From Terriglobia bacterium (lineage in GTDB: Bacteria > Acidobacteriota > Terriglobia > Bryobacterales > UBA6623), in assembly GCA_009841225.1 (NCBI GenBank), contig VXMF01000037.1:31875-95874 (forward strand): a stretch of DNA of 64,000 nt, read 5' to 3'. Below the pieces are notes generated by a model, which saw only the letters and a list, made by a program, of their open reading frames with translations, was not told the DNA's origin and did no database searches. Made by a program: the position numbers and the translations under genes. This document shows positions 50,229 to 63,882 of this stretch, piece after piece (position 1 is the first letter of the stretch; every line of letters starts with the position of its first letter).

Positions 50229-51970
50229 GGCTTGGCCAGCTCCTCCTCGATGCGCTGCCGCTCGTGGATGCGAGCGTACAAGCCGCCGCCTGCCAGCAGA
50301 CTCTCATGCGAACCGGTGTCAACGACCCGGCCCGCATCCATCACCGCGATGCGGTCCGCCAACCTGGCCGAGGAGACGCGGTGCGTCACGATCAGCAGCG
50401 TGCGGTCGCAGGTTGCCGGGCGAATGCGTTCCAGCAGCTCGTGCTCGGTCTCGGCATCCAGACTGGAAGTGGAGTCGTCGAGCACCACGATTGCGGGATC
50501 CCGCAGCAAGGCCCTAGCTAGGGCAACGCGCTGCTTCTGGCCGCCCGAAAGGGTGATTCCGCGCTCGCCGACGAGCGTGTCCAGTCCATCCGGGAAGTTG
50601 TCCTCGTACGTGTCCAGCAGCGACAGCCACGCAGCCTCTTCGACCTCTTCCATGCTCGCGTCGGGCCGCCCCAAGCGGATGTTGTCGGCAATCGAGCGGC
50701 TGAACAAGAACGTTTCCTGCGGTACGTACCCGACGCGCTTGCGCAGCGCCTGTAGCGGCAGCCGCCGGACATCGACATCGTCGATCACCACCGCGCCGTG
50801 GGTTGGGTCGTACAGCCTGGGAACGAGGCTAGCTAGAGTAGACTTGCCGCTGCCGACCGGACCGATGATTGCCAGCGACATGCCGTGCAGAACCGACAGG
50901 CTCACGTCGCGGACCGCATAGCCGCTGGCTCTGGGGTACTGGACGCTGACGGACTGCCACTTGATCGAGCCTCGAATTTGGTCTTTGGATCTCAACACCC
51001 CGGGCGCGTCGGCAATCCGCGGTCTGTGGTTCAGCAGCTCGTTCAGGCGCCCTAGCGACGCCACGCCGCGCTGGGTGATGTTTACGACCACGCCCATGCC
51101 GATCATGGGCCACGCCAGCATGGCCAGGAAGTAGATAAACATCGTGAACGTGCCGACGGTCATCGCGCCCTGCAACACCCGCCAGCTTCCGAATCCGAGC
51201 AGGCTGATGCCGGTCAGCCCGACCAAGAGCTCTAGCAGGGGATAGAAGCTGCGCCAAATGCGGACCAACCCGAGGCTAGCCTCGACATAGTCGGCATTGG
51301 CAGCAGCGAACCTGCCGACCTCGGCAGGGCCCTGGTTGTTGGCCCGCAGCATTCGCAGGCCGGCCAAGTGCTCTTGCACCCGGACGCTGATCCCGGAGAA
51401 GCGCTTCTGCACGGCCTGGAACTGCTCGTGCGTGCGGCGGCCGAAGTGCCCGACTGCCAGCGAGATCAGCGGCATGGGCGCGAAGATCACCAGCGTGAGC
51501 AGCCAGTCGGTCCAGGCCATGATGGAGAGCACCGTTGCGATCACGACGCCGATCTCGGCCGTGTACATCAGCCCCGGCCCCAGCAGGGAGCGCACCTGGG
51601 CAAGATCGTTGGTCACCCGGGCCATCAGGTCACCGGTGCGGTAGCGCTCGTAAAACGTCCGATCCAGCGTGACCAAGTGGGCGCTTATGTCATTGCGCAA
51701 GTCATACTCGATGTCGCGCGAGATCGTGATCAGAATCCAGCGCATCGCATATTGCGCGATTCCCTTGCAGGCCGCGACGCCGAGCGCCAGCAACATGGTA
51801 TTCACGGCCGCCTCTTGCTCGCCCGCGGCAAGCTGGTCCACCGCCCGTCCGATCAGCAACGGCACACCGGCCGCCAACACGCCGCGAAACAGCAGCGCGG
51901 TCAAGCCTCCCCCGTAACGCCAGCGATAGCGGAGCAGGTAAGGAAACAGCGTGCGCAGCGTTGCCAGCAA
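50225..51970 (-). CDS. ABC exporter (TMD-NBD), heterodimer half with degenerate Walker B
   Basis: GPVGSGKS, LSGGQKQR, LDDSTS, THR; ATGA overlap with its partner. Confidence 0.93.
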   Translation of the reverse strand: MLATLRTLFPYLLRYRWRYGGGLTALLFRGVLAAGVPLLIGRAVDQLAAGEQEAAVNTMLLALGVAACKGIAQYAMRWILITISRDIEYDLRNDISAHLVTLDRTFYERYRTGDLMARVTNDLAQVRSLLGPGLMYTAEIGVVIATVLSIMAWTDWLLTLVIFAPMPLISLAVGHFGRRTHEQFQAVQKRFSGISVRVQEHLAGLRMLRANNQGPAEVGRFAAANADYVEASLGLVRIWRSFYPLLELLVGLTGISLLGFGSWRVLQGAMTVGTFTMFIYFLAMLAWPMIGMGVVVNITQRGVASLGRLNELLNHRPRIADAPGVLRSKDQIRGSIKWQSVSVQYPRASGYAVRDVSLSVLHGMSLAIIGPVGSGKSTLASLVPRLYDPTHGAVVIDDVDVRRLPLQALRKRVGYVPQETFLFSRSIADNIRLGRPDASMEEVEEAAWLSLLDTYEDNFPDGLDTLVGERGITLSGGQKQRVALARALLRDPAIVVLDDSTSSLDAETEHELLERIRPATCDRTLLIVTHRVSSARLADRIAVMDAGRVVDTGSHESLLAGGGLYARIHERQRIEEELAKP

Positions 51971-51977
51971 AGTCGAC

Positions 51978-52391
51978 CTACCCGTGGTAGAGCATCAAAT
52001 AGATTGCCACGCCGGTCAGCGACACGTACATCCAGAGCGGCCATGTCCACCGGGCGATGGCGCGGTGGCGGCCATAGTCGCCGCGCCATGCGCGCAGCAG
52101 CGTGGTCGCGGCCAGCGGCAGGATCACGATCGCCAGCACGATGTGGCTGATCAAGATGGAGAAATAGACGGGCCGGACCCAGCCCTGGCCCGTGAACGGC
52201 ACCGAGCCCACCTGCCAGTGGTAGACCAGATAACTGGCGAGGAACGCCACCGAGGCCCCACAGGCGCAGAGCATGCAAGCCCTGTGCCGCTGCACATCCC
52301 CGCGACGGATGAACACGTATCCGAGCGTCAGCAAGATCGCCGCGACTGAGTTCAGGCTGGCGTTGAGCGCGGGCAGGTCGGTGAAATCCAT
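51978..52391 (-). CDS. DUF420 membrane protein
   Basis: LP.LNA.LN, HRACM, FL.SYL.YH, L.SH..LA, H..IARWT.PLW.YVS.TG. Confidence 0.9.
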   Translation of the reverse strand: MDFTDLPALNASLNSVAAILLTLGYVFIRRGDVQRHRACMLCACGASVAFLASYLVYHWQVGSVPFTGQGWVRPVYFSILISHIVLAIVILPLAATTLLRAWRGDYGRHRAIARWTWPLWMYVSLTGVAIYLMLYHG

Positions 52392-52419
52392 TCGGTCGGT
52401 TGGCGCCGCGTGCCGAGAA

Positions 52420-53256
52420 TCAGGACAGGTGCGCCGCCTCAGACCGCGCCGCCTTGCGCCACGCGGCGAGCAGCATAACAGCGCCGAAGCCCGCGAGCAC
52501 CAGCCACGACAACTCAGCGGCCGGCACCGTGCCGGCTCCGGGCGCGTCCAGGAGCCTGCGCAATTCGGCTACGCCGTAGGCCAAGGGGTTGACCGTGGTA
52601 AGCCAGCGCAGCCAGGCCGACGAGCCGTCCAAGGGAAAGACCCCGCCGGAGACGAGCCACATGGGCATCAGCACGAGGTTCATGATCGAGTGGAAGCCCT
52701 GCACCGAGTTCAGCCACCAAGCACAGAAGAACCCCAAGCAGGTCACCCCGAATGCCATCAGCAACAGCACCGCGAATACCAGCGGCAGCTTGGCGAGATC
52801 GAGCGAAAGGCCCGCCAACGGCGCCAATGGCAGCAGGAGAGCCCCTTGAATGGCCCCCAATGTGGTGGCCCCGCACACTTTTCCCAACACCAGCGCGAGG
52901 CGCGACACGGGAGCTACCAGCACGCCTAGCAGGAATCCCTCGCGGCGATCCTCGATCAGCGAGATATTGGCAAAGATCGACGTGAACAGGACGCTCAGCG
53001 CCAGCATCCCGGGAAAGAAGAACTGTGCGTATCCGCCCTCGGAGGCCAGCAGCGAAGAGCCGAAGCCGGACCCTAGCACGAGCCAGAACAGCAGCGGCGT
53101 GGACAGCGTGCCGACGACTCGGCTGCGCTGGCGGTAGAAGCCGCGCAGTTCGCGCCGCCACAGCGTCGCCGCGCACAGCCAGAAGCTGGCGCTGCTAGCA
53201 GGTTGGTCGCCCGCCACAGGCAGCGCGACAACTGCCCCTTCGGGCGCATCGGACAT
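52420..53256 (-). CDS. ABC-2 type permease
   Basis: FFPGM, DRREGFL...LVAP.SR..LVLGK, SG..FP, NPL.Y. Confidence 0.88.
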   Translation of the reverse strand: MSDAPEGAVVALPVAGDQPASSASFWLCAATLWRRELRGFYRQRSRVVGTLSTPLLFWLVLGSGFGSSLLASEGGYAQFFFPGMLALSVLFTSIFANISLIEDRREGFLLGVLVAPVSRLALVLGKVCGATTLGAIQGALLLPLAPLAGLSLDLAKLPLVFAVLLLMAFGVTCLGFFCAWWLNSVQGFHSIMNLVLMPMWLVSGGVFPLDGSSAWLRWLTTVNPLAYGVAELRRLLDAPGAGTVPAAELSWLVLAGFGAVMLLAAWRKAARSEAAHLS

Positions 53257-53326
53257 CGGGTGGGTCAGCGGCGGGATAGTGAGACAAGCAACCGCACGTT
53301 TATTTTAGCGCGCGGCGCCGCCGCAC

Positions 53327-53920
53327 TCACAGCTCGAGCAGGTAGCCCGGCTTGCCGACATTCGCCGCCAGCGTCGCGCCCAGCCGCACGGTCCGGCCAG
53401 AACCCTCGTGGATGTGCCCGCAGAAGCAGTACTCCGGCTGGTGCTCGTCGATGTAGTCGCGGACAGCCTTGGAGCCGAAGTGCAGGCCCGGACCGGCCTC
53501 GTCCAGAGGCGTGTTCAACGGCGGGGCATGGCAAACCAAGACCTGGGGGAACCGGCCGGCGAAACATGACAGCTTGGCGGCCAGATCCTCCTCCGAGTAT
53601 TCTCCGGGCGTGTCGAAGGGCGTGGGGTTGGAATAGCCCAAGCCGGCGAAGTGCACGCCGGCCACCTCGCGGACATCCTCGTGAAAGCTGCGAAAGCCGT
53701 GGCGCTCGCAGAACTCGCGCACCTGCTCGGCTGTCTCGTTATTGCCCGGCATGACCCAAAGGCGCTCGCCCAAGGGCGCGAGAACCTCCGCGCACGGGTC
53801 GAGCGGGGCAGGGTGGGTCACCAGGTCTCCGGCAGCGATGAAAACGTCGGCTTCGACTGCGACGGCCTGCCGCAGGCTGGCGAAGTCGCCGTGGATGTCG
53901 GAAAAGATCTGGAATCTCAT
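53327..53920 (-). CDS. Metallophosphoesterase (calcineurin-like, Icc-related)
   Basis: SDIHG, GDL, GNNE, H.PP, CGHIHE. Confidence 0.88.
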   Translation of the reverse strand: MRFQIFSDIHGDFASLRQAVAVEADVFIAAGDLVTHPAPLDPCAEVLAPLGERLWVMPGNNETAEQVREFCERHGFRSFHEDVREVAGVHFAGLGYSNPTPFDTPGEYSEEDLAAKLSCFAGRFPQVLVCHAPPLNTPLDEAGPGLHFGSKAVRDYIDEHQPEYCFCGHIHEGSGRTVRLGATLAANVGKPGYLLEL

Positions 53921-53932
53921 CAGGAACCTGGG

Positions 53933-54157
53933 TCAGCCCCTAGGGTGACGCCGCGTGGCACCCAGCCTCTCGGAAGCCCTCTCGATCACCTTGCCCTCAG
54001 CCTGCTCCCTTCCCGCCGCCCTGGCCCGGGCGATGTTGGCGCCTGGAGAGACGTTGTCCGCCTTGGCGTGCCAAGTCTCGCCTATGCGGTAGGACGTGAT
54101 GCGCACCGGCCAGCCTGCCAGTTCGAGCTCGGTGACGCTGAAGCTCTCGGCCTTCAT
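53933..54157 (-). CDS. Small hypothetical protein coupled to the sulfurtransferase
   Basis: ATG overlaps the sulfurtransferase TGA (ATGA); 74 aa MKAESFSV...; GC3-biased. Confidence 0.7.
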   Translation of the reverse strand: MKAESFSVTELELAGWPVRITSYRIGETWHAKADNVSPGANIARARAAGREQAEGKVIERASERLGATRRHPRG

Positions 54158-54999
54158 GCGCCGCGCTCGACGGGTGCGCCGACGAGGTTGCCCCACTCGG
54201 TCCACGACCCGTCATAGTTGCTCACGCCTTCGTAGCCCAGCAGGTACTTGAGCACGAACCAAGAATGGCTGGAACGCTCGCCGATGCGGCAGTACGCGAC
54301 GATCGGCTTGTCGCCGACGATGCCCTCGGCGGCGTAGAGTTCGCGCAAGGCGCCGGCACTCTTGAACGTGCCGTCCTGGGCGCAGGCCTTGCCCCACGGA
54401 ATGTTCCGCGCGCCCGGAACGTGCCCGCCGCGCTGGCACGTCTCGGGCAGGCCGGGAGGGGCGAGGATCTCGCCGCTGAACTCGGCTGGGCTCCGCACGT
54501 CGACGAGGTCGGCCGCGCTGGAGCCCGACGCCTCTCTGACCTGGCCCAGGAACGCCCGGATCGAAAGGTCCGGTTCAGAGGCGGAATAGTCCGTTGGCGC
54601 GAACTCCGGCGACTCCAATGAGAGTTCGCGCCCCTCGGCCAGCCACTTCACGCGTCCGCCGTTCATCAGCCTGACATCCGGGTGGCCGTAGATCTTCAGC
54701 TGCCAGAACGCCCAAGCGGCGAACCAGTTGTTGTTGTCGCCGTAGAGCACGACGGTCGTATCCCTGCCGATACCACTGTCGCCCAGCAATCTCTCGAAGC
54801 GGTCCTTGGGCAGGATGTCGCGCACGACCGTGTCACACAGCTGGCTGTCCCACGCCCAGCCGATCGCACCTGGCACGTGACCCTCGTCATAGGAGCCCGT
54901 GTCCACATCGACCTCCACGACTCGGACGCCGCCGCTGCGGCTGTGTTGGTCGACCCAATCGGTCGTAACCAGTACTTCTGGATGCGCGTAGCCTGACAT
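54154..54999 (-). CDS. Two-domain thiosulfate sulfurtransferase (CysA/SseA-like rhodanese)
   Basis: YAHPEVLVTTDW, GHVPGA, DVRSP.EF.G, active site YCRIGERS, NYDGSWTEWG; -10 TATAAT at 55060-55065 (minus). Confidence 0.93.
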   Translation of the reverse strand: MSGYAHPEVLVTTDWVDQHSRSGGVRVVEVDVDTGSYDEGHVPGAIGWAWDSQLCDTVVRDILPKDRFERLLGDSGIGRDTTVVLYGDNNNWFAAWAFWQLKIYGHPDVRLMNGGRVKWLAEGRELSLESPEFAPTDYSASEPDLSIRAFLGQVREASGSSAADLVDVRSPAEFSGEILAPPGLPETCQRGGHVPGARNIPWGKACAQDGTFKSAGALRELYAAEGIVGDKPIVAYCRIGERSSHSWFVLKYLLGYEGVSNYDGSWTEWGNLVGAPVERGA

Positions 55000-55337
55000 G
55001 ATTTGCTCCTCTGCTCTGCCGCTAGGCTTTCGTTTCAGGGCCGCCGGATTGACCAAACGATTATAGGTCAGGCGCGGCCGCGGAGACCGGCCCACGGCGG
55101 CGAGGCCGCTGATCCGGCCGGCCCGCGAGAGGGCGCCAGTTCCGCCTTCGCTGCGGAACGTGAAAAGCGCCCCAAGCGCCTCCGCGCGCCCGCGTCTGGG
55201 CACCAAGACATCGCACTCGCTGTTTACAACCATTTGACGAACGGCAAGTGACCCCTCTACAGCGCCTTGCGCCTATAAGAACAAGGCCGCCTGGCGGCGT
55301 CGCACCGCGCCGCTGCGACCCAAAGCACCTATCCACG

Positions 55338-56132
55338 ATGTCCTCCAGCAGCGCAAGTGCTTTCGCAGACCAAGTTCACGACCACCTTGCCGATTTCGCG
55401 ACGGTGCCGCTGGAAGCGCTCGGACCGCAGGCCTCGCAAGACCGCTGCGACACGAAGTTCTTGCTGCCACAAGGCCAGCTGCTGGCGCTGCTCGGCGCCC
55501 TGCGGCGCGACTACCGAGTCCTGGAAGTCGGCGAGATGCGCATCCATCGCTACCGCACGCTCTACTTCGACACCGCGGGATTCGACCTGTACCGAAGACA
55601 CCAACGCTCCTCGCGCGGCGCCCTCAAGGTCCGCAGCCGCCAGTATGTCGACTCGCGGCGCTCGTTCTTCGAACTCAAGCGCAAGATCGGGCCGCGCCGC
55701 ACGGTCAAGGAGCGGACCGAGACCCCGGACATCGTCACGGAGCTGACCGAGGCCGAAGGCGCCTTCATCGCAGCCCATGCGCACATTGACACCGAGTGTC
55801 TCCAGCCAACGATATGGAATCGATTCGAGCGGATCACGCTCGTGAGCAAGACGAGTCCAGAGCGAGTTACGCTCGACGTTGGCGTGCACTTCAAGATCCA
55901 GACTGGCGCGATTCGGATTCCGGGCGTTGTGGTCGGGGAACTGAAGCAGCAGCGTCTCGACCGAACATCCACATTCTTCGGCCACATGCGCTCGCTCGGA
56001 TCCCGGCCCACCGGATTCAGCAAGTACTGCGTCGGGGCGGTTCTGCTCTACCCGCAGTTGAAGCGCAGCCAAGCGCGACCCAAGCTCCGCATGCTAGCCA
56101 AGCTGGCCCGGGGAGACCGCCATGCAGCCTGA
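55338..56132 (+). CDS. VTC-domain polyphosphate polymerase (CYTH/TTM fold)
   Basis: R.DTKF, TLYFDT, KVRSRQY, FFELKRK, R.TL, ERVTLD, ELKQ, FSKYC. Confidence 0.88.
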   Translation: MSSSSASAFADQVHDHLADFATVPLEALGPQASQDRCDTKFLLPQGQLLALLGALRRDYRVLEVGEMRIHRYRTLYFDTAGFDLYRRHQRSSRGALKVRSRQYVDSRRSFFELKRKIGPRRTVKERTETPDIVTELTEAEGAFIAAHAHIDTECLQPTIWNRFERITLVSKTSPERVTLDVGVHFKIQTGAIRIPGVVVGELKQQRLDRTSTFFGHMRSLGSRPTGFSKYCVGAVLLYPQLKRSQARPKLRMLAKLARGDRHAA

Positions 56133-56742
56133 TTTGCTCGCCCACCTCGCCGGAGCCGGATTCAACCTTGCGGTGGCGCTGCTGATCGTCCGGCTGATCT
56201 ACTACCCCACTACGCAGGACAAGCAGTACGTGCTGACGTTCGTGACGTTCAGCACAGTGACCTATTTCGTGCTGGGCCTGCTGACCAGCGTTGACTTGAG
56301 CATCGGCGTGGGTTTCGGCCTGTTCGCGATCTTTTCCGTGCTGCGCTACCGCACGGACACGATCTCGGCGCGCGAGATGACCTACCTGTTCGTGCTGATC
56401 GCGCTGGCGGTGATGAATTCGGTGCTGGCGACGCAATCCGACTACGCCCGCATGCTGGCATCCAACGCAGTGGTGGTCTTGGTGATGTTCGTGCTGGAAC
56501 GCGAATGGGGCTTTCACTTCGAGGCGAGCAAGCAGATCCACTACGACAAGGTCGAACTGGTAGTGCCGTCGCGCAAGGAAGAGCTGCTCGCCGACCTGCG
56601 CGCACGGACCGGGCTGCCGGTTCGGCATGTTGCCGTGGGACGCATCGACATGGTTCGCGACACGGCGGAGCTCACGCTCTTCTTCGACGATCGGGAACAG
56701 CAAGCAGCGGCTCGTGCCAACGGGACGAAGGAAACATCATGA
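56122..56742 (+). CDS. DUF4956 membrane protein
   Basis: GVGFGLFAIFSVLRYRT, EMTYLF, Y...EL......L..DL..RTGL; overlaps the VTC stop. Confidence 0.9.
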   Translation: MQPDLLAHLAGAGFNLAVALLIVRLIYYPTTQDKQYVLTFVTFSTVTYFVLGLLTSVDLSIGVGFGLFAIFSVLRYRTDTISAREMTYLFVLIALAVMNSVLATQSDYARMLASNAVVVLVMFVLEREWGFHFEASKQIHYDKVELVVPSRKEELLADLRARTGLPVRHVAVGRIDMVRDTAELTLFFDDREQQAAARANGTKETS

Positions 56743-59552
56743 ATTCCCTATGCAAGGCAATCAGCTTGGCCGTCTTCGCAGCAACCTTAGCAGTGCTGCT
56801 CGCGCAGGGTCCGCCCGGCATCTCGAGGGTGCTGCCGGTTATGGCCGCACTCGATGCGGACGCGGACAACACGTTGTCTGAGGAAGAAATCGGCGCCGCT
56901 CCGGACGCGCTGCTCACTCTGGACACCGATGGCAGCGGCAGCCTCACTCGAGACGAGCTCATGCCGCGATTCGGCGGCAATGCTGGCGGAGGCCGCGGCA
57001 CTGGGCGCGAGGCTCGGCCCGGGGATCCGGGCACGGGCCCAAGACCGGGCAGGGGCGGCCCTGTGGGCGTTCCGGGCATCCCACTGATAGCAGCCCTCGA
57101 TCCGGACCGTGACGGGGAAATCAGGCCGGAAGAGATCCGACGGGCGACAGCGTCGCTGGCGACCCTGGATGCCGATGGTAGCGGCACCTTGACCGGTGAC
57201 GAACTACTGCCTCGATTCGGCGGGCGCGGCGGCCCGGGCAGGGGCCAGGGCCGGCCTCCGATTGCGCTGCCCGTCGTGGATGTGCTCGACGCCAATGCTG
57301 ATCGTGAGATCTCGGCTGCGGAGCTAGCGGCAGCCAGTTCGGCCCTGCGTTCACTGGACTCAAACGCCGACGGCCAGGTTAGCGAGAGCGAAATGCTGCC
57401 CCAAGGCGGCACCTTCGGCGGACGCCAGCGCGGGGGCCCACGAGGCCCCGGCGCCATGCTGGGCACACTCCCGCTTGTCGACGCGCTCGACAGCGACGGC
57501 AGCGGAGCGCTCGAACGGGCCGAGATCGACAATGCGAGCGCAGCGCTGGCAACCCTCGACAGTGACGGGAGCGGCGCGCTCTCCGCAAGCGAATTCCTCC
57601 CAAGCCGCGGCGGCCGAGGGGGCGGCGGGCGCGGTTTCCGGGGCGGCCCGGGCGGTTTCGGAGAAGTCGCGGCGGAGCGCAAGCAGCCCCACGAGCTGAC
57701 GCCTGACGAGGGAGCGGCCACGATTCCAGACCGGGCAACGTTCGAGAAATTCTCCTACCAAGGCGAGCAGGTCATGATCGATTCCGGACTCCGCGGCCTC
57801 GAATTCGTCAAGTTCGTGATCACCGAAGCCATCTCCGACGAGCCGCAGATGTACTTCATGAACACCGAGAACTTCCGCGCCCACCCGCAATTCATGCGCT
57901 CGGTCGGCCTCGGTTTCAGCGGGCGCGGCGGCCAGTCCGGCACGATGCGCGGCGTATTGGTGTTCCGCCCGCTGCTCACCGCGCCCAACGGCGACGCCGG
58001 GCTGTACACGTTCGAGTTCGAACCGAGGGACTCGTACCCGTTCGAGATGATCCGGCTCTCCCACGACCTCCTCACCGAGCACGCTCCGATCGTTGCCGGC
58101 CGGCTGGCGTACTACCCGCTACCTGCCGCTGTCGCTCGCTACGAGCAAGAGCGCGGGCAATATGAAGCCGCCGGCCTAGCGGTCTTCCGGGAGGAGGATC
58201 TGTTCGGGGACATCGCCTATCTCCCGCTCAACGCAGCCGAGGGCTTCGGCTACTTGCGGCTGATGTCGCCCGAGGACCGCCCGCGGGTGCGAGACGTGGT
58301 GCTCTACGAGAGCCTCCCCAACGAGATGCCGCGCGTGGCCGGGATCATCACAAGCGTCCGGCAGACGCCGCTCTCTCACGTGAATCTGCGGGCCGTACAG
58401 GATGGCGTGCCGAACGCGTATATCAAGGGGGCATCTGAAAACCCGGAGATCGTTGGCTTGATCGGCAAGTACGTCCGCTACAGCGTCACTCCCGATGGCT
58501 ACCAACTCCGCGAGGCAACCGTTCAGGAAGTTGAGGGCCACTTCGCCAAGCTGCGCCCGAGCCAAGCGCTCGTTCCAGAGCGCGACCTCGGCGTCAAGGA
58601 GATCCGCCCGCTGAGCGAGCTCGGCTTTGACGACGCTGCCAGCGTGGGCGTGAAGGCGGCCAATGTCGCCACCCTGGGCAGCCTGGGCTTCCCGGCAGGC
58701 GTAGTGCCGGAAGGATTCGCGATACCGTTCTCCTTCTACGACGGCTTCATGCGCCACAACGGTCTATACGAGCAGGCTGCGGCGATGTTCGCCGCGCCCG
58801 GCTTCGCAACCGACACCGGCGTTCGCGAAGAGGCGCTGCGGCAGTTCCGCAAGGCGGTCCGCGCCGGGGAAACGCCCGGCTGGATGCTGGCCGAGCTGCA
58901 GTCCATGCACGCGTGGTTCCCGGAGGGCCGCGCGATCCGCCTGCGCTCCAGCACCAACAACGAGGACCTGCCAGGCTTCAGCGGCGCCGGTTTGTACGAC
59001 TCGTTCACGCATCACCCGGAGGAGGGCCACGTTTCCAAGTCCGTCAAGCAGGTCTACGCCAGCCTCTGGAATTTCCGCGCCTATGAAGAACGCGCATTCT
59101 TCCGCATCGATCACATGGCGGCCGCGATGGGCGTATTGGTCCACCCGAACTATGCGGGCGAGCGCGCCAACGGAGTCGCGGTCACCGAGGACATCGTGTA
59201 CCAGACCGGCGGGGACGGCCGGCCGCGAATGTACTATGTCAACACCCAAGTCGGCGAGGACCTGGTCACGAACCCGGAAGGCGAGTCGATCCCGGAAGAA
59301 TTGCTGCTCAGCACCCGCGGGGCCCGGGACGACCGATTCATTCGCAGTTCCAACCGAACCGCTGACGGGGGCGTGATCCTCAACGACGAGCACCGCAACG
59401 AGCTGCGCGCCTACCTGCGCACTGTGCAGGGCAGGTTCCGCGATCTGTACGAAGTGTCCGCCAATGAGCGGTTCGCCATGGAGATCGAGTTCAAGATCAC
59501 TTCCGACGGGCGGCTGGCTGTCAAGCAAGCGCGTCCGTGGGTCTTTCACTGA
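56739..59552 (+). CDS. Exported EF-hand-repeat / phospho-His swivel / PPDK-type ATP-grasp (dikinase-like) protein, 937 aa
   Basis: ATGA overlap with DUF4956; signal peptide; 8 DxDxDG/DxDxS loops; AGIITSVRQTPLSHVNLRA; VGVKAAN, VPEGFAIP, RSSTNNED, SGAGLYDS, ASLWN, EIEF...KQARP. Confidence 0.8.
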   Translation: MNSLCKAISLAVFAATLAVLLAQGPPGISRVLPVMAALDADADNTLSEEEIGAAPDALLTLDTDGSGSLTRDELMPRFGGNAGGGRGTGREARPGDPGTGPRPGRGGPVGVPGIPLIAALDPDRDGEIRPEEIRRATASLATLDADGSGTLTGDELLPRFGGRGGPGRGQGRPPIALPVVDVLDANADREISAAELAAASSALRSLDSNADGQVSESEMLPQGGTFGGRQRGGPRGPGAMLGTLPLVDALDSDGSGALERAEIDNASAALATLDSDGSGALSASEFLPSRGGRGGGGRGFRGGPGGFGEVAAERKQPHELTPDEGAATIPDRATFEKFSYQGEQVMIDSGLRGLEFVKFVITEAISDEPQMYFMNTENFRAHPQFMRSVGLGFSGRGGQSGTMRGVLVFRPLLTAPNGDAGLYTFEFEPRDSYPFEMIRLSHDLLTEHAPIVAGRLAYYPLPAAVARYEQERGQYEAAGLAVFREEDLFGDIAYLPLNAAEGFGYLRLMSPEDRPRVRDVVLYESLPNEMPRVAGIITSVRQTPLSHVNLRAVQDGVPNAYIKGASENPEIVGLIGKYVRYSVTPDGYQLREATVQEVEGHFAKLRPSQALVPERDLGVKEIRPLSELGFDDAASVGVKAANVATLGSLGFPAGVVPEGFAIPFSFYDGFMRHNGLYEQAAAMFAAPGFATDTGVREEALRQFRKAVRAGETPGWMLAELQSMHAWFPEGRAIRLRSSTNNEDLPGFSGAGLYDSFTHHPEEGHVSKSVKQVYASLWNFRAYEERAFFRIDHMAAAMGVLVHPNYAGERANGVAVTEDIVYQTGGDGRPRMYYVNTQVGEDLVTNPEGESIPEELLLSTRGARDDRFIRSSNRTADGGVILNDEHRNELRAYLRTVQGRFRDLYEVSANERFAMEIEFKITSDGRLAVKQARPWVFH
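56841..57660 (+). repeat. Four tandem EF-hand-pair modules with Gly/Arg/Pro-rich linkers
   Basis: Module P(V/L)..ALD.D.D..I...EI..A...L..LD.DG.G.L...ELLP repeated 4 times. Confidence 0.85.
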
Positions 59553-59573
59553 CGCCTGTGCGCAGGCGAGAGC

Positions 59574-60209
59574 CTACTCCGCCAGGCAAGCATCGATGTC
59601 GGCGGCGGCGATGCCACCCTGCTTGATCAGGCGCCACTGCAACGCCGTGATATCGATGGTGGTCGACGCCGGTCCCTCGATGATCCCGCCATCGACGATC
59701 AAGCTGATGCGACCGTCCATGGTTCCGAGCACCTCAAAGCCGCCGCGACACGTGGGCTTGCCTGACACGTTTGCGCTAGTGGCGATCAGAGGCGTGCCGA
59801 ATTCAGCCACTAGCCGCTTCGCCAGCGCAGATGCCGGGCGGCGAAGGGCCAGCCGGCCCGTGTTGCCGGTGACGCGCAGCGGCACCTTGGAAGACGCTGG
59901 CACGATCACAGTCAGCAGCCCCGGCCAGAAGCGCCGCGCCAGCAGGTAGAAGCTCGACGGCAATTCGCCGGCGTACTCCACGGCCATCGCGACCGAGTCG
60001 ACAAGCAGCGGTAGCGAGCGATGGGCCTCGCGTCCCTTCGCCTCAAATACCTTCGCCACGGCGTTGAGATTCAGCGGATCGGCCACCAGCACGTACAGCG
60101 CGTCGCTCGGAATCGCGATCACTTCCCCGTAGCGGACCGCACTGACCGCCGCTTCCACCACGGCATCGTCCGGATCCTCGGCCGAGGTTTCAATCAAGTG
60201 GGTAGTCAA
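59574..60209 (-). CDS. tsaC: L-threonylcarbamoyladenylate synthase (TsaC/Sua5/YrdC family)
   Basis: P.D.LY, K.R, FWPG.LT, TSANVSG, STTID. Confidence 0.85.
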   Translation of the reverse strand: MTTHLIETSAEDPDDAVVEAAVSAVRYGEVIAIPSDALYVLVADPLNLNAVAKVFEAKGREAHRSLPLLVDSVAMAVEYAGELPSSFYLLARRFWPGLLTVIVPASSKVPLRVTGNTGRLALRRPASALAKRLVAEFGTPLIATSANVSGKPTCRGGFEVLGTMDGRISLIVDGGIIEGPASTTIDITALQWRLIKQGGIAAADIDACLAE

Positions 60210-60573: not shown

Positions 60574-63500
60574 ATGCGCTTGGCGTCGATTCTTCTGACA
60601 AGCATTCTGTTGGTCTGCACCGGGGCATTCGCCCAGCAAGACCAAGGCAACATCACCGGCACGATCACCGATTCCACGGGAGCGGTGATCCCCGGGGCAA
60701 GCATCACGGCGCGCGAGATCAGCACCAACGTGACGCTGATGTCGTCGTCGAACGAGGGCGGCGTCTACGTGGTCGGGCCGCTCAAGATCGGCACCTACGA
60801 AATCTCGGTCGAGTCGGACGGCTTCAAGAGGTCCGTGCGTGCGGGAGTGGAGATTCACGCCGGCGACCGCATCGGCCTCAACTTCGAGCTGGAAGTCGGC
60901 GATCTGGTGGAAGTGGTCACGGTCGAGGGCACCACGCCGGTGCTCAAGACCGAGAACGCCACGCTGGACTACACGGTCGAGCGCAAGCAGCTGGAGGACT
61001 TCCCGCTCAACGGCCGCAGCTACCAATCGCTCGGACTGCTCAGCGCGGGCGTCGCCCCGGAAATCGGCGGCCGCGACCGCGGGCCGCTGGGCACGTCATC
61101 GTTCGGCAACGGGCTGAGCGTGAACGGCCAGCCGGCCCTGCAGAACAACTATCTGATCGACGGCGTTGACAACAACTCGACCGTGATGGGCCTGCAGGAC
61201 CGCAAGTCCCAAGCAGTCATTCCCTCGCTCGACGCCGTGCAGGAGATGAAGGTCCAGACCTCGAACTACTCCGCCGAGTATGGGCGCAACGCCGGAGGCG
61301 TGATCATGGTCTCGATTCGCGGCGGCACCAACGAGTTCCACGGTAGCGCGTACGAGTTCATCCGCAACGACGTCTTCGACGCGCGGCCGGCGTTCGGGCG
61401 TAACGACCGCGACGGCGATGGCAAGGCCGATCCGGCCGTGCTGCGCCAGAACCAGTGGGGCGGCACCTTCGGCGGCCCGATCGTCAAGAACAAGGCATTC
61501 TTCTTCGGCAGCGTGGAGACTTGGAACGTCAGGCGCGCGCAGAGCGACCTAGTGGTCGTGCCGACGGCGCTGGAGCGCGCAGGCGACTTCAGCCAGACGG
61601 CGGGGCTGGCCAGGCTGCTCGACCCCAACACCTCCTCCGTGCCGGCAGAGCGGGGAGAATTCCCGAACAAGACGATTCCCGCCAACTTCGCCATGCGCGA
61701 CCCGGTCGGCGTCGCCTTGGCGGATCTTTACCCGGCGCCAAACCTGTCCGACCCCGCCACTCGCAACAACTTCACCAGCGGCGAGCCGTGGATGACCGAC
61801 CGCGTGCAGTACGACTTCCGCTACGACCAGACCGCCTCGGCGAAGGACAGTCTCTTCGTGCGCTACAGCATGTACACGTTCGACCAGAATCGCGGCGCGC
61901 CGCTGCCGGGCATCGCGCGCGGCGGGGTGGGCAACGACCGCGCCCGCGACGACAACGGAGGCTCGCACTTGGTGATCTCGGAAACGCATGTGTTCAATCC
62001 CTTCGTCATCAACGAATTCCGCTTCGGGCGCAAATTCTTGGGCGTGAACAAGGACATCGATTCCAACGTGCCGCTGGCCGACCTCGCCCAGCAGTACGGG
62101 CTGCGCGGCGTGGACACGTCTGACAACATCAACGGACTGCCCCGCTTCGCGATGGCCGGGAACTTGCCCTTCATCGGCTTGGGAGGCTCGGGCTTCCAGC
62201 CCAACATCAAGGACACCTGGACCTATCAGTGGATGAACAACCTCACCGTGATCCGAGGCAACCACAGCATCAAGTTCGGAGCGGACATTCGCTATGACCG
62301 CACGAACATCGAGGGCTCGCAGAACGCTCGCGGCATCTTTAACTTCAACGGCAAGTTCAGCGGCATCAGCATGGCCGACTTCCTGCTGGGCTGGATCAAC
62401 AACGCCACCAAGAGCACCCAGGTGCTCAGTGACCAGCTCTTCCGCAGCTACATGTTCTTCGTCCAAGACGATTGGAAGGTCACGCCGAGCCTGACGTTGA
62501 ACTTGGGAGTGCGCTACGAATTGACCTCGCCGTGGTTCGCTGAAGACAACCGCATGAACAAGCTGTCGATCGATCCCGACACCTACGGCCAGACGATCAC
62601 GGCGGGTGAGTTCGGCGACAGCTGGTCCCACCGCGCTTTGGTCAACACCGACGCCAACAACTGGGCTCCGCGGGTCGGGTTCGCGTGGCAGCCTGCCCAG
62701 CGCTGGACTTTCCGCGGCGGGGCGGGGGTGTTCTACGGCGGCCAGCAAGGGCTGGGAGCGTCCGGGCGCATGCTAGCGAACTTCCCGTTCGTCGCGCAGG
62801 TTCAGCGCACCTCGGGCCGGGCGGCACCGGCATTCTTGCTACGCGATGGTTTCCCGGCGGACTTCCTAGGAGACCTAAGCGATGCCGACAATCGGCCGCG
62901 CAACCTCAGTTTGCAGCACTGGTCGACGCATTTTCCCATGCCGACGACCTACCAGTGGAACTTCAGCGTCCAGCGGCAACTCGCGAACAACCTCGGCCTG
63001 ACCGTTGCCTATGTCGGCTCGTCGTCGAATTTCCTGCTGAGCGCCTATAACGAGAACGCGGCGACACGCGGGGACCCGGGCACCGAGGCCTCGCGGCGCA
63101 AGCACTTCGAGGATGTCGGCAATCTGGTCTACAGGACCCCGTACGGCTCGGCGAATTACAACGGCCTCAACACCACCCTCGCCAAGCGCTTCTCCGGGGG
63201 CAACTTGTGGACCATCGCCTACACCTGGGCGCACGGCATCGGCAACACTCCGGAACAGTTCGTGGGCGGCGAGACCGGCGTGCAGGATCCGACCTGCTTC
63301 TCGTGCCAGCGCGGCTCGAACTCCAGCGACGTGCGGCAGCGCCTCGCCACAAGCTACGTGGTGGAACTGCCCTTCGGCCGGGGCAAGCGGCTGCTGGACA
63401 GGGGCGGAGCGGTCAACGCGATCTTCGGCGGCTGGCAGCTGACCGGCCTGCTACAGGCGCAAACCGGCCAGTACTACAACGTCACCCTGCCGAACGCCTT

Positions 63501-63882
63501 TAGCAACCTAGGTACTCGCGTGGGCACCTGGAGGCCGGACGTGATCGGCGAGCACCGCGTGTCGAACCCCGGGCCGGACAAGTGGTATGAGCGCACCGCC
63601 TTCGAGATTCCGCGGGACGCGAACGGCGTGCCGGACTTCGGCAACGTGGGCCGCAACACCATGCAAGAGGACGGCATCTTCAACTGGGACATCGGGCTGC
63701 AGAAATCCTTCTACCCGACCGAGGGTACCGAGGTGCAGTTCCGCTACGAGGTGTTCAACCTGACCAACCACCCGAGCTTCGCAGTGCCGAACCGAAACGT
63801 CCGCTCGCCGGCCGGCGGCACGATCCGCAACACGAATACGACACCGCGACAGATGCAGTTCAGTCTGCGCATCGTCTTCTAA
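60574..63882 (+). CDS. TonB-dependent receptor, Oar-like
   Basis: Signal peptide; ITGTITDSTGAVIPGA, PLNGR, YSAEYGR..GG, GTNEFHG, PRQMQFSLRIVF; RBS AGGGGG. Confidence 0.94.
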   Translation: MRLASILLTSILLVCTGAFAQQDQGNITGTITDSTGAVIPGASITAREISTNVTLMSSSNEGGVYVVGPLKIGTYEISVESDGFKRSVRAGVEIHAGDRIGLNFELEVGDLVEVVTVEGTTPVLKTENATLDYTVERKQLEDFPLNGRSYQSLGLLSAGVAPEIGGRDRGPLGTSSFGNGLSVNGQPALQNNYLIDGVDNNSTVMGLQDRKSQAVIPSLDAVQEMKVQTSNYSAEYGRNAGGVIMVSIRGGTNEFHGSAYEFIRNDVFDARPAFGRNDRDGDGKADPAVLRQNQWGGTFGGPIVKNKAFFFGSVETWNVRRAQSDLVVVPTALERAGDFSQTAGLARLLDPNTSSVPAERGEFPNKTIPANFAMRDPVGVALADLYPAPNLSDPATRNNFTSGEPWMTDRVQYDFRYDQTASAKDSLFVRYSMYTFDQNRGAPLPGIARGGVGNDRARDDNGGSHLVISETHVFNPFVINEFRFGRKFLGVNKDIDSNVPLADLAQQYGLRGVDTSDNINGLPRFAMAGNLPFIGLGGSGFQPNIKDTWTYQWMNNLTVIRGNHSIKFGADIRYDRTNIEGSQNARGIFNFNGKFSGISMADFLLGWINNATKSTQVLSDQLFRSYMFFVQDDWKVTPSLTLNLGVRYELTSPWFAEDNRMNKLSIDPDTYGQTITAGEFGDSWSHRALVNTDANNWAPRVGFAWQPAQRWTFRGGAGVFYGGQQGLGASGRMLANFPFVAQVQRTSGRAAPAFLLRDGFPADFLGDLSDADNRPRNLSLQHWSTHFPMPTTYQWNFSVQRQLANNLGLTVAYVGSSSNFLLSAYNENAATRGDPGTEASRRKHFEDVGNLVYRTPYGSANYNGLNTTLAKRFSGGNLWTIAYTWAHGIGNTPEQFVGGETGVQDPTCFSCQRGSNSSDVRQRLATSYVVELPFGRGKRLLDRGGAVNAIFGGWQLTGLLQAQTGQYYNVTLPNAFSNLGTRVGTWRPDVIGEHRVSNPGPDKWYERTAFEIPRDANGVPDFGNVGRNTMQEDGIFNWDIGLQKSFYPTEGTEVQFRYEVFNLTNHPSFAVPNRNVRSPAGGTIRNTNTTPRQMQFSLRIVF

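What the first reader, a model, noticed from the sequence alone, without database searches (positions are those of the whole stretch)
55338..59552. Candidate new system: VTC polyphosphate polymerase + DUF4956 + exported Ca-binding dikinase-like protein
Seen: three overlapping, translationally coupled genes (11-nt and ATGA overlaps) encoding a cytoplasmic VTC/TTM enzyme, a multi-TM DUF4956 protein, and a 937-aa signal-peptide protein with 8 EF-hands plus phospho-His and PPDK-type ATP-grasp domains. Established: yeast Vtc4 polymerises polyP from ATP and threads it through a membrane channel; bacterial VTC-DUF4956 pairs are uncharacterised and commonly sit beside exported CotH-family kinases; ATP is scarce outside the cytoplasm. 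Inference: VTC plus DUF4956 synthesise and translocate polyP (or another phosphoryl donor) to the periplasm, where an unrelated phosphotransferase fold replaces CotH and uses it in a Ca2+-dependent way. Possible outputs are phosphorylation of surface glycans or proteins, or Ca-polyphosphate deposition. Interchangeable kinase folds in this slot would indicate a general extracytoplasmic phosphorylation system.
Basis: partly seen in the sequence, partly recalled or inferred. Interest (0 to 1): 0.9.

Follow-up and report, generated by a model that had tools for sequence, protein, structure and literature searches.

The report
Polyphosphate-polymerase operon with exported dikinase-like partner
A sponge-associated bacterium couples a yeast-type polyphosphate polymerase and its membrane partner to an exported, calcium-binding enzyme of the dikinase type that sits where a CotH kinase normally sits, which hints at a way to supply phosphoryl groups outside the cytoplasm.

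Summary
Three overlapping genes encode a soluble VTC/Vtc4-like enzyme, a five-helix DUF4956 membrane protein, and a 937-aa protein with a signal peptide, four EF-hand pairs and a C-terminal PPDK_N ATP-grasp. Its phospho-His domain is probable, not Pfam-certified.

The third gene belongs to a large exported family: 480 loci in species-representative genomes. Most members stand alone. VTC and DUF4956 lie directly beside it in 21 of 80 loci examined, in three different gene orders. These fall in three separate clades of the VTC tree.

Of 55 unlinked genomes, 53 carry DUF4956 elsewhere at E<=0.001 (52 over cut-off). Background is 3% in Gammaproteobacteria, 13% in Acidobacteriota and 23% in Planctomycetota.

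The usual neighbour of DUF4956 is CotH (43 of 77 sampled loci; this family 0 of 77). The window's genome and 16 related genomes have no CotH. So the dikinase-like protein occupies the CotH slot here.

Polyphosphate export and its use as donor remain inference.

Verdict: a real new variant of a noted but uncharacterised gene cluster, and interesting.

The parts
55338..56132 (+). Gene 1: soluble VTC/Vtc4-like triphosphate-tunnel enzyme, 264 aa, candidate polyphosphate polymerase
   Evidence: Pfam VTC 76.8 bits. A profile of 15 homologs matches the yeast Vtc4 catalytic domain 3g3q end to end at E=5.9e-24, and the inactive Vtc2/Vtc3 less well. Invariant tunnel residues are K40, K97, R99, R101, E112, K114, R165, R176, E201, K203, with S228-K229-Y230 in at least 90% of rows. 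No hydrophobic segment.
56122..56742 (+). Gene 2: DUF4956 membrane protein, 206 aa, with five hydrophobic segments and an 80-aa soluble C-terminal tail
   Evidence: Pfam DUF4956 182.4 bits. Hydropathy. Invariant R75 and R77 (RYR/RFR) at the end of the third segment in 14 diverse homologs. It overlaps gene 1 by 11 nt.
56739..59552 (+). Gene 3: exported EF-hand / His-domain / ATP-grasp dikinase-like protein, 937 aa
   Evidence: ATGA overlap with gene 2. Pfam EF-hand families and PPDK_N. More than 4708 relatives. 480 loci in species-representative genomes.
56739..56804 (+). Predicted Sec signal peptide (residues 1-22, with ...VLLA/QG as a possible cleavage site)
   Evidence: It is the only hydrophobic segment of the protein (KD19 2.24). 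A like leader occurs in 68 of 72 assessable family members. The cleavage site is my reading, not a tool result.
56805..57920 (+). Four units, each an EF-hand pair followed by an Arg/Gly-rich linker (residues 23-394)
   Evidence: EF loops at 62, 121, 144, 207, 251 and 274 by pattern, and at 39 and 184 by eye. The linkers hold 3-6 Arg and 7-14 Gly each. In the family, 62 of 72 have an RG-rich stretch before the module and 59 of 72 have at least one EF loop.
57921..58250 (+). Conserved domain of unknown fold at the start of the catalytic module (residues 395-504); candidate acceptor-binding part
   Evidence: Conserved across phyla in alignment A1. No Pfam match at E<=10.
58251..58598 (+). Probable swivelling phospho-His domain; His547 is the codon at 58377-58379
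   Evidence: TPLSHVNLRA is invariant in 18 of 18 sequences. hhalign against 29 PEP-utilizers domains gives P=1.8e-4 with the His residues aligned. Weak GWD1_pHisD match at 58332-58523. No Pfam hit.
58641..59537 (+). PPDK_N-type ATP-grasp nucleotide-binding domain (residues 635-933)
   Evidence: Pfam PPDK_N 1.3e-21. The profile matches the ATP-grasp of PEP synthase 2ols (3.3e-15) and of chains deposited as 'Phosphoenolpyruvate synthase' (5hv1, 5fbs), which I recall to be rifampicin phosphotransferases. The motifs GxK..N, RSS..ED and E.E...Q.RP are conserved.

Best explanation
This is a self-contained three-gene operon. A cytoplasmic Vtc4-like enzyme (gene 1) and its DUF4956 membrane partner (gene 2) serve an exported phosphotransferase (gene 3). 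In most bacteria the exported partner of the VTC-DUF4956 pair is a CotH-type kinase. In this Bryobacterales lineage the partner is a different fold. It consists of a signal peptide, four EF-hand pairs with Arg/Gly-rich linkers, a swivelling His domain, and a C-terminal ATP-grasp. That is the domain order of plant glucan,water dikinases.

Shown here:
- the gene structure and the domains;
- the repeated, independent linkage of this family with VTC-DUF4956;
- its occupation of the CotH slot in genomes without CotH.

Inferred, by analogy with the yeast VTC complex:
- gene 1 makes polyphosphate from cytoplasmic ATP;
- a DUF4956 oligomer passes the chain across the inner membrane;
- the exported enzyme, held on Ca-polyphosphate by its acidic EF loops and basic RG linkers, takes phosphoryl groups from it through His547 and passes them to an unknown envelope acceptor.
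For: Operon structure. The genes overlap by 11 nt and 4 nt and are bounded by a divergent and a convergent gene. The same overlaps occur in relatives whose flanking genes differ.

Linkage. VTC and DUF4956 lie next to the gene-3 homolog in 21 of 80 loci, and in 3 of 9 further Planctomycetota genomes. The orders are VTC>DUF4956>G3, DUF4956>VTC>G3 and G3>VTC>DUF4956. On a VTC tree the G3-linked rows form three starred clades among CotH-linked ones, and starred branches force at least 3 changes. On the G3 tree the linked state needs at least 5 changes.

Genome-level co-occurrence. DUF4956 is present in 5 of 5 and 48 of 50 genomes with an unlinked homolog. Background is 8 of 299 Gammaproteobacteria, 33 of 250 Acidobacteriota, and 55 of 241 G3-negative Planctomycetota. 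Within the Planctomycetota sample the figures are 6 of 9 against 55 of 241, Fisher p=0.008.

Slot. CotH lies within 6 kb of DUF4956 in 43 of 77 sampled loci. CotH over cut-off is found in 0 of 1 (own genome) and 0 of 16 related triad genomes.

Shared N-terminal design. Four distinct CotH proteins next to DUF4956 (L096, L097, L202, L206) also start with a leader, an EF loop and an RG/G-rich linker.

VTC. The Vtc4 match is full length, and the Lys that aligns with Vtc4 K200 is conserved.

Export. A leader is present in 68 of 72 assessable family members.

Literature. cotH, a polyP polymerase gene and DUF4956 are noted together beside Gram-positive pel clusters (PMC7112168, passages). Deleting the DUF4956 and CotH genes lowered Pel and aggregation in S. 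intermedius, with the mechanism left open (PMC12345266, passages).

Expression hint. In one sponge metatranscriptome library a 2,915-nt contig about 90% identical spans the end of gene 1, all of gene 2 and most of gene 3. This is weak, because DNA can be present in such libraries.
Against: - No activity was tested. TTM tunnel residues are shared by triphosphatases, so conservation does not prove polymerase activity.
- DUF4956 shows no sequence relation to the yeast VTC channel domain, has no solved relative, and no fold could be predicted.
- Most family members (59 of 80 loci) are not adjacent to VTC/DUF4956.
- 26 of the 55 co-occurrence genomes are Poribacteria, so the counts are not independent.
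- 53 of those 55 genomes also have CotH, so co-occurrence with DUF4956 could run through CotH or a shared lifestyle.
- Some G3 genomes lack DUF4956 by Pfam: G039 and G843. G939 and G969 have only sub-cut-off matches.
- The ATP-grasp keeps its nucleotide-site motifs. That fits an adenine nucleotide better than bare polyphosphate.
- The His domain rests on weak profile evidence.
Confidence: 0.5

Rival explanations
1. The link is real, but the exported enzyme acts on exported polyphosphate rather than using it to phosphorylate a third molecule. Run in the reverse dikinase direction, it could make ATP (or ADP) from AMP plus polyphosphate outside the cytoplasm. That would feed exported ATP-dependent enzymes such as CotH kinases. 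Alternatively it could cap, trim or anchor the chain.
For: The ATP-grasp nucleotide motifs are intact. 53 of 55 genomes with an unlinked homolog also carry CotH, often in many copies. Dikinases of this superfamily are reversible; that is established knowledge of PPDK, recalled.
Against: In the window's lineage there is no CotH to feed. No acceptor or nucleotide source outside the cell is known. Nothing was tested.
Confidence: 0.15
2. The exported enzyme is a glucan,water-dikinase-like glycan kinase that uses ATP from another source. VTC-DUF4956 only supplies polyphosphate for cation or phosphate handling at the envelope. The genes are co-regulated, and no phosphoryl hand-off takes place.
For: The domain order (His domain before a C-terminal PPDK_N) is that of GWD/PWD (PMC11986951 passages; one search lists GWD1_pHisD on 15% of one related cluster). 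The pel-cluster link of the CotH triads points to polysaccharides (PMC7112168, PMC12345266). The EF hands fit a calcium-rich outside.
Against: No carbohydrate-binding module was found. No ATP source is known in the periplasm. Three independent recruitments next to VTC-DUF4956, with translational coupling, argue for more than shared regulation.
Confidence: 0.15
3. The VTC-like protein is a triphosphatase or a signalling TTM enzyme. DUF4956 has been described elsewhere as an MgtC-like membrane domain with an ACT-like tail. Together they form a regulatory pair that controls secretion or activity of exported kinases, and no polyphosphate is exported.
For: The TTM superfamily includes hydrolases and cyclases (recalled). 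The homolog SIR_1592 is described as MgtC-like plus ACT (PMC12345266 passages). The SPX and Vtc1-type channel domains of the yeast complex are absent.
Against: The profile matches catalytic Vtc4 far better than inactive Vtc2/3, and no other TTM in the PDB at E<=1. The Lys aligned with Vtc4 K200 is invariant. One VTC-MFS transporter fusion exists, which points to transport.
Confidence: 0.1
4. The adjacency is inherited synteny within one clade and has no functional meaning.
For: The first, insensitive screen found the triad only in Bryobacterales (16 of 80). From the DUF4956 side the partner is never this family in 77 sampled loci.
Against: There are three gene orders in three VTC clades across at least two phyla. 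The flanks differ around a constant triad. Genome-level co-occurrence is far above background.
Confidence: 0.03

Closest known systems
cotH / polyP-polymerase (VTC) / DUF4956 accessory gene set beside Gram-positive pel clusters (Whitfield et al. 2020, PMC7112168; S. intermedius SIR_1592-1594, PMC12345266)
   Same: It has the same two core genes, a VTC domain protein and DUF4956, tightly linked to a gene for an exported ATP-type phosphotransferase. The window's VTC nests in a starred clade that also holds CotH-linked VTCs. Some CotH partners share the leader + EF loop + RG-linker N-terminus.
   Different: The exported partner is a His-domain/ATP-grasp protein, not a CotH kinase fold. There is no CotH anywhere in the genome and no pel genes in the flanks examined. 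The published clusters have no known mechanism either.
Yeast VTC complex (Vtc4/Vtc3/Vtc1), polyphosphate synthesis coupled to membrane translocation (PMC9911596 and bioRxiv 2023.01.27.525886, abstracts in the search listing)
   Same: The catalytic tunnel domain is homologous over its full length (E=5.9e-24 to 3g3q) and keeps the basic and acidic tunnel residues. It is paired with a multi-helix membrane protein.
   Different: There is no SPX domain and no Vtc1-type (DUF202) membrane domain. The membrane partner is a separate DUF4956 protein with no detectable relation to it. The target compartment is the periplasm or exterior, not a vacuole. The activity is untested.
Plant and algal glucan,water dikinase and phosphoglucan,water dikinase (GWD/PWD)
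   Same: A C-terminal PPDK_N ATP-grasp is preceded by a catalytic-His domain, and there is no PEP/pyruvate TIM barrel (PMC11986951 passages). A related Atlas cluster carries GWD1_pHisD on 15% of its members.
   Different: There is no CBM45 or CBM20. The GWD1_pHisD score is far below cut-off (11.3 against 27 bits). The protein is exported with EF hands. Its substrate is unknown.
PEP synthase / pyruvate phosphate dikinase / rifampicin phosphotransferase
   Same: The ATP-grasp domain is homologous (2ols 3.3e-15; 5hv1 and 5fbs about 4e-9). A His domain is probably related to the PEP-utilizers mobile domain.
   Different: The domain order is reversed: the His domain comes before the ATP-grasp. There is no PEP-utilizers_C domain. 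All NCBIfam equivalogs score far below their cut-offs (for example 67.8 against 598 bits). The genome has its own canonical 930-aa PPDK-type enzyme elsewhere.

Membership tests
VTC / Vtc4-type polyphosphate polymerase | VTC (triphosphate tunnel) catalytic domain | tested here: met
   PF09359 76.8 bits, cut-off 23. The profile matches Vtc4 3g3q at E=5.9e-24 over profile positions 4-223.
VTC / Vtc4-type polyphosphate polymerase | Conserved tunnel residues, including the Lys equivalent to Vtc4 K200 | tested here: met
   K40 is invariant in 15 of 15 sequences and aligns with the K of Vtc4 'TTKYW' (residue 200 by the numbering of chain 8i6v_E). K97/R99/R101, E112/K114, R165, R176 and E201/K203 are invariant, and S228-K229-Y230 is in at least 90% of rows. 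That K200 is essential is recalled, not from a call.
VTC / Vtc4-type polyphosphate polymerase | Polyphosphate synthesis from ATP | not testable with these tools
   This needs an enzyme assay.
VTC / Vtc4-type polyphosphate polymerase | Vtc1-type (DUF202) transmembrane channel and SPX sensor domain | tested here: not met
   Gene 1 matches no family other than VTC. The only long forms found were one VTC-MFS fusion and one fungal SPX-DUF202-VTC protein.
DUF4956 | Match to PF16316 over its full length | tested here: met
   182.4 bits, profile positions 1-169 of 169.
VTC-DUF4956-CotH gene triad | VTC and DUF4956 genes adjacent | tested here: met
   11-nt overlap. Each is the only copy in the genome.
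VTC-DUF4956-CotH gene triad | An adjacent CotH (PF08757) gene | tested here: not met
   There is no CotH in the 98.55%-complete genome, and 0 of 16 related triad genomes have one over cut-off.
PEP-utilising dikinases (PPS/PPDK) | PPDK_N ATP-grasp domain | tested here: met
   PF01326 77.7 bits, cut-off 27; PDB profile hits.
PEP-utilising dikinases (PPS/PPDK) | PEP-utilizers mobile His domain (PF00391) | tested here: inconclusive
   No Pfam hit at E<=10. hhalign gives P=1.8e-4, probability 23%, with the catalytic His aligned. Paralogs give PF00391 at E=0.04-0.13 in the same position.
PEP-utilising dikinases (PPS/PPDK) | PEP/pyruvate-binding TIM barrel (PF02896) and the order ATP-grasp > His > barrel | tested here: not met
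   There is no PF02896. The His motif at 547 lies before the ATP-grasp at 635-933. NCBIfam equivalogs score far below their cut-offs.
Glucan,water dikinase (GWD/PWD) | GWD1_pHisD domain followed by a C-terminal PPDK_N | tested here: inconclusive
   The order fits. PF22973 scores only 11.3 bits (cut-off 27), although its single match in the genome falls on the His motif.
Glucan,water dikinase (GWD/PWD) | N-terminal starch-binding modules (CBM45 or CBM20) | tested here: not met
   Only EF-hand families match the N-terminal 394 residues. The precomputed Pfam lists of the 120 listed relatives show EF-hand families, PPDK_N and, on one protein, PF23657, which I did not look up.
EF-hand calcium-binding proteins | Paired 12-residue Ca-binding loops | tested here: met
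   EF-hand_1/5/6/7 score above their cut-offs. Six loops match a strict pattern and two are degenerate; they lie in pairs 23 residues apart. Ca binding itself is not testable here.

The most novel reading that the evidence does not exclude
VTC-DUF4956 is a widespread bacterial machine that makes polyphosphate from cytoplasmic ATP and threads it across the inner membrane as the phosphoryl or energy currency of the ATP-free extracytoplasmic space. Exported enzymes of at least two unrelated ATP-type folds plug into it: CotH kinases and this GWD-like His/ATP-grasp family. They do so through a shared leader + EF-hand + Arg/Gly-rich module that docks on Ca-polyphosphate. The dikinase-like family would then be the first polyphosphate-driven, or polyphosphate-to-ATP converting, His-swivel enzyme outside the cell.
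Probability: 0.25. Interest if true: 0.9.

Novelty: new variant of a known kind. Interest (0 to 1): 0.72.

Why it matters
Secreted bacterial kinases pose an old puzzle: they need a phosphoryl donor where there is no ATP. The cotH / VTC / DUF4956 cluster has been noticed beside pel loci and affects Pel-dependent aggregation, but it has no mechanism.

Here a second, unrelated ATP-type phosphotransferase family was recruited to the same VTC-DUF4956 pair at least three times. In one lineage it stands there alone, without any CotH. This moves attention from the particular kinase to the pair itself as the common supplier.

It also gives a clean three-gene system to test. The tests are polyphosphate export, His547 phosphorylation by polyphosphate against ATP, and Ca2+ dependence.

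The family is abundant in sponge symbionts and in marine Planctomycetota, Verrucomicrobiota and SAR86-like bacteria. A role in extracellular phosphorus chemistry would therefore have ecological weight.

I found no paper that links PPDK_N-type exported proteins to VTC or DUF4956. The searches were 'DUF4956'; 'CotH' with 'polyphosphate'; VTC-domain phrases; 'PPDK_N/PF01326/GWD1_pHisD/PF22973'; and 'CotH' with kinase, secreted and polysaccharide.

Tried and rejected
First neighbour screen. A tblastn screen with the window's own VTC and DUF4956 (E<=1e-5) found the triad in only 16 of 80 loci, all Bryobacterales or Terriglobia. It was too insensitive. Iterated HMMs raised the count to 21 of 80. My provisional reading of a 'clade-specific adjacency' was dropped.

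Other conserved neighbours. Clustering of flanking ORFs found no neighbour shared across phyla in unlinked loci. Pfam on ten such neighbours gave housekeeping or lectin-like proteins and no hint of a substrate.

Single-sequence PDB searches with VTC and DUF4956 found nothing meaningful. The DUF4956 profile also found nothing.

His domain. The first hhalign attempt used a shallow query against a single PPDK sequence. It aligned only 10 columns at the start of the ATP-grasp, with probability 0.3%. It was replaced. Pfam on residues 395-640 gave nothing.

Acidobacteriota sample. It held no true ortholog, only distant exported paralogs scoring 217-283 bits against 1165 for the window's own gene. 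Eight of those 19 genomes have DUF4956. That sample could therefore not serve as a 2x2 table for the ortholog.

Order of G003. 0 of 120 other genomes have the family and 9 of 120 have DUF4956, 8 of them over cut-off. DUF4956 does not predict gene 3.

Fusion search. The search for long VTC fusions returned only 2 proteins, and its candidate filter makes a blank weak.

Reads. The RNA-library run X20 gave no cover over 55200-55493, and run X16 covered only parts. I draw nothing from the uncovered parts. All laid runs are contigs, so no transcript ends, strand or expression level can be read.

Literature. The first paper search was swamped by unrelated 'VTC' meanings. ProFaNA (PMC10364804) mentions PPDK_N only next to SelO.

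Selection of loci. For the DUF4956-centred survey I fetched all 39 hits of the Acidobacteriota sample. From the gamma class sample I fetched 9 of 10 listed hits, all but the centre G003. From the order sample I fetched 9 of 11, without G003 and the sub-cut-off G608. From the Planctomycetota sample I fetched only the 20 best-scoring of 81 listed hits, and that subset left out the three G3-adjacent ones, which I had fetched before. Two extra loci (L202, L203) are not in the total of 77. Some loci are cut by contig ends, so 'none' is a ceiling. Six of the 80 G3 loci are shorter than 9 kb.

Full report
**What is there**

The window is GC-rich (about 65%). Between a divergent rhodanese gene (54154-55233, minus strand) and a convergent Sua5/YrdC gene (59574-60209, minus strand) lie three plus-strand genes.
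- Gene 1: 55338-56132.
- Gene 2: 56122-56742. It starts 11 nt before the stop of gene 1.
- Gene 3: 56739-59552. Its ATG shares ATGA with the stop of gene 2.

Pfam assigns them to VTC, DUF4956, and EF-hand plus PPDK_N. No NCBIfam equivalog comes near its cut-off for gene 3. The VTC protein has no hydrophobic segment. DUF4956 has five, followed by an 80-residue soluble tail. Gene 3 has only an N-terminal leader.

**Gene 3 in detail**

After the leader come four units, each an EF-hand pair followed by an Arg/Gly-rich linker of the type LxPRFGGRGGxGRG.

Residues 395-937 form a module that is about 60% identical across phyla. It ends in an ATP-grasp homologous to that of PEP synthase and of chains I recall to be rifampicin phosphotransferases. 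The GxK, RSS..ED and E.E...Q.RP motifs are kept.

Before the ATP-grasp lies an invariant TPLSHVNLRA motif (His547).
- No Pfam model recognises this region.
- A profile-profile comparison with 29 PEP-utilizers mobile domains aligns His547 with the catalytic His (P=1.8e-4, probability 23%). An earlier shallow attempt failed.
- The only GWD1_pHisD match in the whole genome, although far below cut-off, falls on the same spot.
- Distant paralogs give weak PEP-utilizers hits at the same relative place.

A His domain followed by a C-terminal PPDK_N, with no PEP/pyruvate barrel, is the layout of glucan,water dikinases (PMC11986951, passages). It is not the layout of PPS/PPDK. I call the His domain probable.

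**The family**

More than 4708 proteins match the module. 480 loci in one-genome-per-species contigs encode it. They come from Bryobacterales, Poribacteria, Planctomycetota, Verrucomicrobiota, SAR86-like Gammaproteobacteria and others.

Of the 120 listed relatives, 72 have an assessable N-terminus. Of those 72:
- 68 have a leader-like hydrophobic stretch;
- 62 have an RG-rich stretch before the module;
- 59 have at least one EF loop.

It is thus a conserved exported family with no characterised member that I could find.

**Is the linkage to VTC-DUF4956 real?**

A first tblastn screen saw the triad only in 16 of 80 loci, all close to the window's lineage. Iterated HMMs found five more:
- two Acidobacteriota (L032, L041) and a Pirellulaceae (L060), with the order DUF4956>VTC>G3;
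- a Planctomycetota (L028) and an uncultured bacterium (L038), with the order G3>VTC>DUF4956.

Three more Planctomycetota genomes from an even sample show DUF4956>VTC>G3.

On a maximum-likelihood tree of 74 VTC domains, the G3-linked ones form three starred clades that match the three gene orders. The window's clade nests among CotH-linked VTCs, and starred branches force at least three changes. On the G3 tree the linked state needs at least five changes. Repeated assembly of the same neighbourhood in different orders is strong evidence of a functional tie.

**Genome-level co-occurrence**

Among genomes whose G3 homolog is not adjacent to the pair:
- DUF4956 is present elsewhere in 5 of 5 and in 48 of 50, 47 of them over cut-off;
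- VTC is present in 4 of 5.

Two of the apparent misses (G019, G027) turned out to have divergent or split DUF4956-like ORFs plus VTC directly upstream of G3. This rests on my own HMM.

Background frequencies of DUF4956:
- 8 of 299 in a Gammaproteobacteria sample;
- 9 of 120 in the order of G003, where G3 was found in 0 of 120;
- 33 of 250 in Acidobacteriota;
- 55 of 241 among G3-negative Planctomycetota, against 6 of 9 G3-positive ones (Fisher p=0.008).

Caveats: 26 of the 55 genomes are Poribacteria, relatives are not independent, and G039, G843, G939 and G969 lack a match over cut-off.

**The CotH slot**

In four of five genomes looked at closely, the VTC/DUF4956 genes sit beside CotH genes.

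I made a DUF4956-centred survey of 77 loci from the samples:
- VTC and CotH both within 6 kb: 33;
- CotH only: 10;
- VTC only: 11;
- neither: 23;
- this family: 0.

An earlier, narrower window had miscounted triads of the order DUF4956>CotH>VTC.

So CotH is the usual partner and the G3 partnership is a minority variant. The window's genome (98.55% complete) has one VTC, one DUF4956, one G3 and no CotH. None of 16 related triad genomes has CotH over cut-off. Conversely, 53 of 55 genomes with an unlinked G3 do have CotH. The two folds mostly coexist, and G3 stands alone only in this lineage.

Four distinct CotH proteins next to DUF4956, from four groups, begin with the same leader + EF loop + RG/G-rich linker design as G3. 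This looks like a shared docking module.

**The core pair**

A profile of 15 bacterial VTC domains matches the catalytic domain of yeast Vtc4 over its full length (E=5.9e-24). It matches the inactive Vtc2/Vtc3 less well, and no other TTM protein at E<=1. The Lys aligned with Vtc4 K200 and the basic and acidic tunnel residues are invariant.

DUF4956 keeps two invariant arginines (RYR/RFR) after its third hydrophobic segment. It has no solved relative. A published homolog is described as an MgtC-like membrane domain with an ACT-like tail. Deleting it or the neighbouring CotH lowered Pel and aggregation in S. intermedius (PMC12345266, passages). The gene set was first noted beside Gram-positive pel clusters (PMC7112168, passages). 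One VTC-MFS transporter fusion exists.

**How it most likely works**

Shown: the gene structure, the domains, the export signal, the repeated linkage, and the occupation of the CotH slot.

Inferred by analogy with the yeast VTC complex (abstracts of PMC9911596 and bioRxiv 2023.01.27.525886 in the listing):
- The VTC protein polymerises phosphate from cytoplasmic ATP.
- DUF4956 conducts the chain outward.
- The exported enzyme uses it through His547.
- Acidic EF loops and basic RG linkers suit binding to Ca-polyphosphate.

The intact nucleotide site leaves room for a reverse reaction, AMP plus polyphosphate to ATP. This is rival 1. So was the store of earlier findings.

**Habitat and expression**

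The stretch, or close relatives of it, occurs in contigs of sponge and marine metagenome runs from 11 studies. An 8.9-kb contig of run X3 covers 56262-59600 with 20 differences.

In one sponge metatranscriptome library a 2,915-nt contig about 90% identical spans 55941-58846, across both gene junctions. This is only a hint of expression, since DNA can be present in such libraries and a contig is not a transcript.

**Verdict**

The finding is real and more than chance. It is a new variant of a gene cluster that is known but not understood. Interest 0.72.

Noticed in passing
Protein P0124 (843 aa): A single protein fuses a VTC domain to an MFS-type transporter (PF07690/PF00083/PF06609). It is a possible independent case of a VTC enzyme wired to membrane transport.
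   Followed up: no
L108-L115 (genomes G504, G419, G586, G371, G405, G515, G444, G492): These are a second, distant family of exported proteins of 633-684 aa with a leader, a TPLSH-type His motif and PPDK_N (217-283 bits to the G3 profile). The family is present in 19 of 250 sampled Acidobacteriota, and 8 of those genomes also hold a lone DUF4956-like gene of about 310 aa with no VTC or CotH nearby.
   Followed up: partly
L032:5954-6668 and L041:5284-6644: In two Acidobacteriota genomes the DUF4956 reading frame upstream of VTC-G3 is split into two ORFs that carry the N- and C-terminal halves of the profile. This could be a frameshift, a real split or an assembly error.
   Followed up: no
L186, L189, L197, L199, L147, L213, L218, L219: A recurrent triad order DUF4956 > CotH (about 850-940 aa) > VTC forms its own starred VTC clade. 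That clade is sister to the DUF4956>VTC>G3 clade.
   Followed up: partly
L096:8515-10986, L097:5728-7215, L206:1106-3220, L202:8442-9929: CotH proteins next to DUF4956 start with a leader, one or two EF loops of the type (K/R)FDxNGDGxL..E and an Arg/Gly-rich linker. This is the same N-terminal design as the G3 family.
   Followed up: partly
L096 (G004, Poribacteria): Here DUF4956 and an EF-hand/CotH/lamin-tail protein lie downstream of an ABC permease gene. No VTC domain was found in that genome by Pfam.
   Followed up: no
L026 (contig labelled uncultured Bifidobacteriaceae): Its G3 homolog is 64% identical to the window's and groups with Terriglobia and Gammaproteobacteria copies. The label may reflect a binning error or a transfer.
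   Followed up: no
G014:C4:155070-157904 and G014:C17:607205-610039: Two DUF4956-CotH loci have equal scores and lengths in one SAR86-like genome. This is either a duplicated cassette or the same region assembled twice.
   Followed up: no
window 48378-53920 and 60574-63882: The flanks hold two ABC exporter genes, DUF420, an ABC-2 permease, a metallophosphoesterase and a 1102-aa TonB-dependent-receptor-like outer-membrane protein. They are shared only with the closest relatives and so are not part of the unit.
   Followed up: partly
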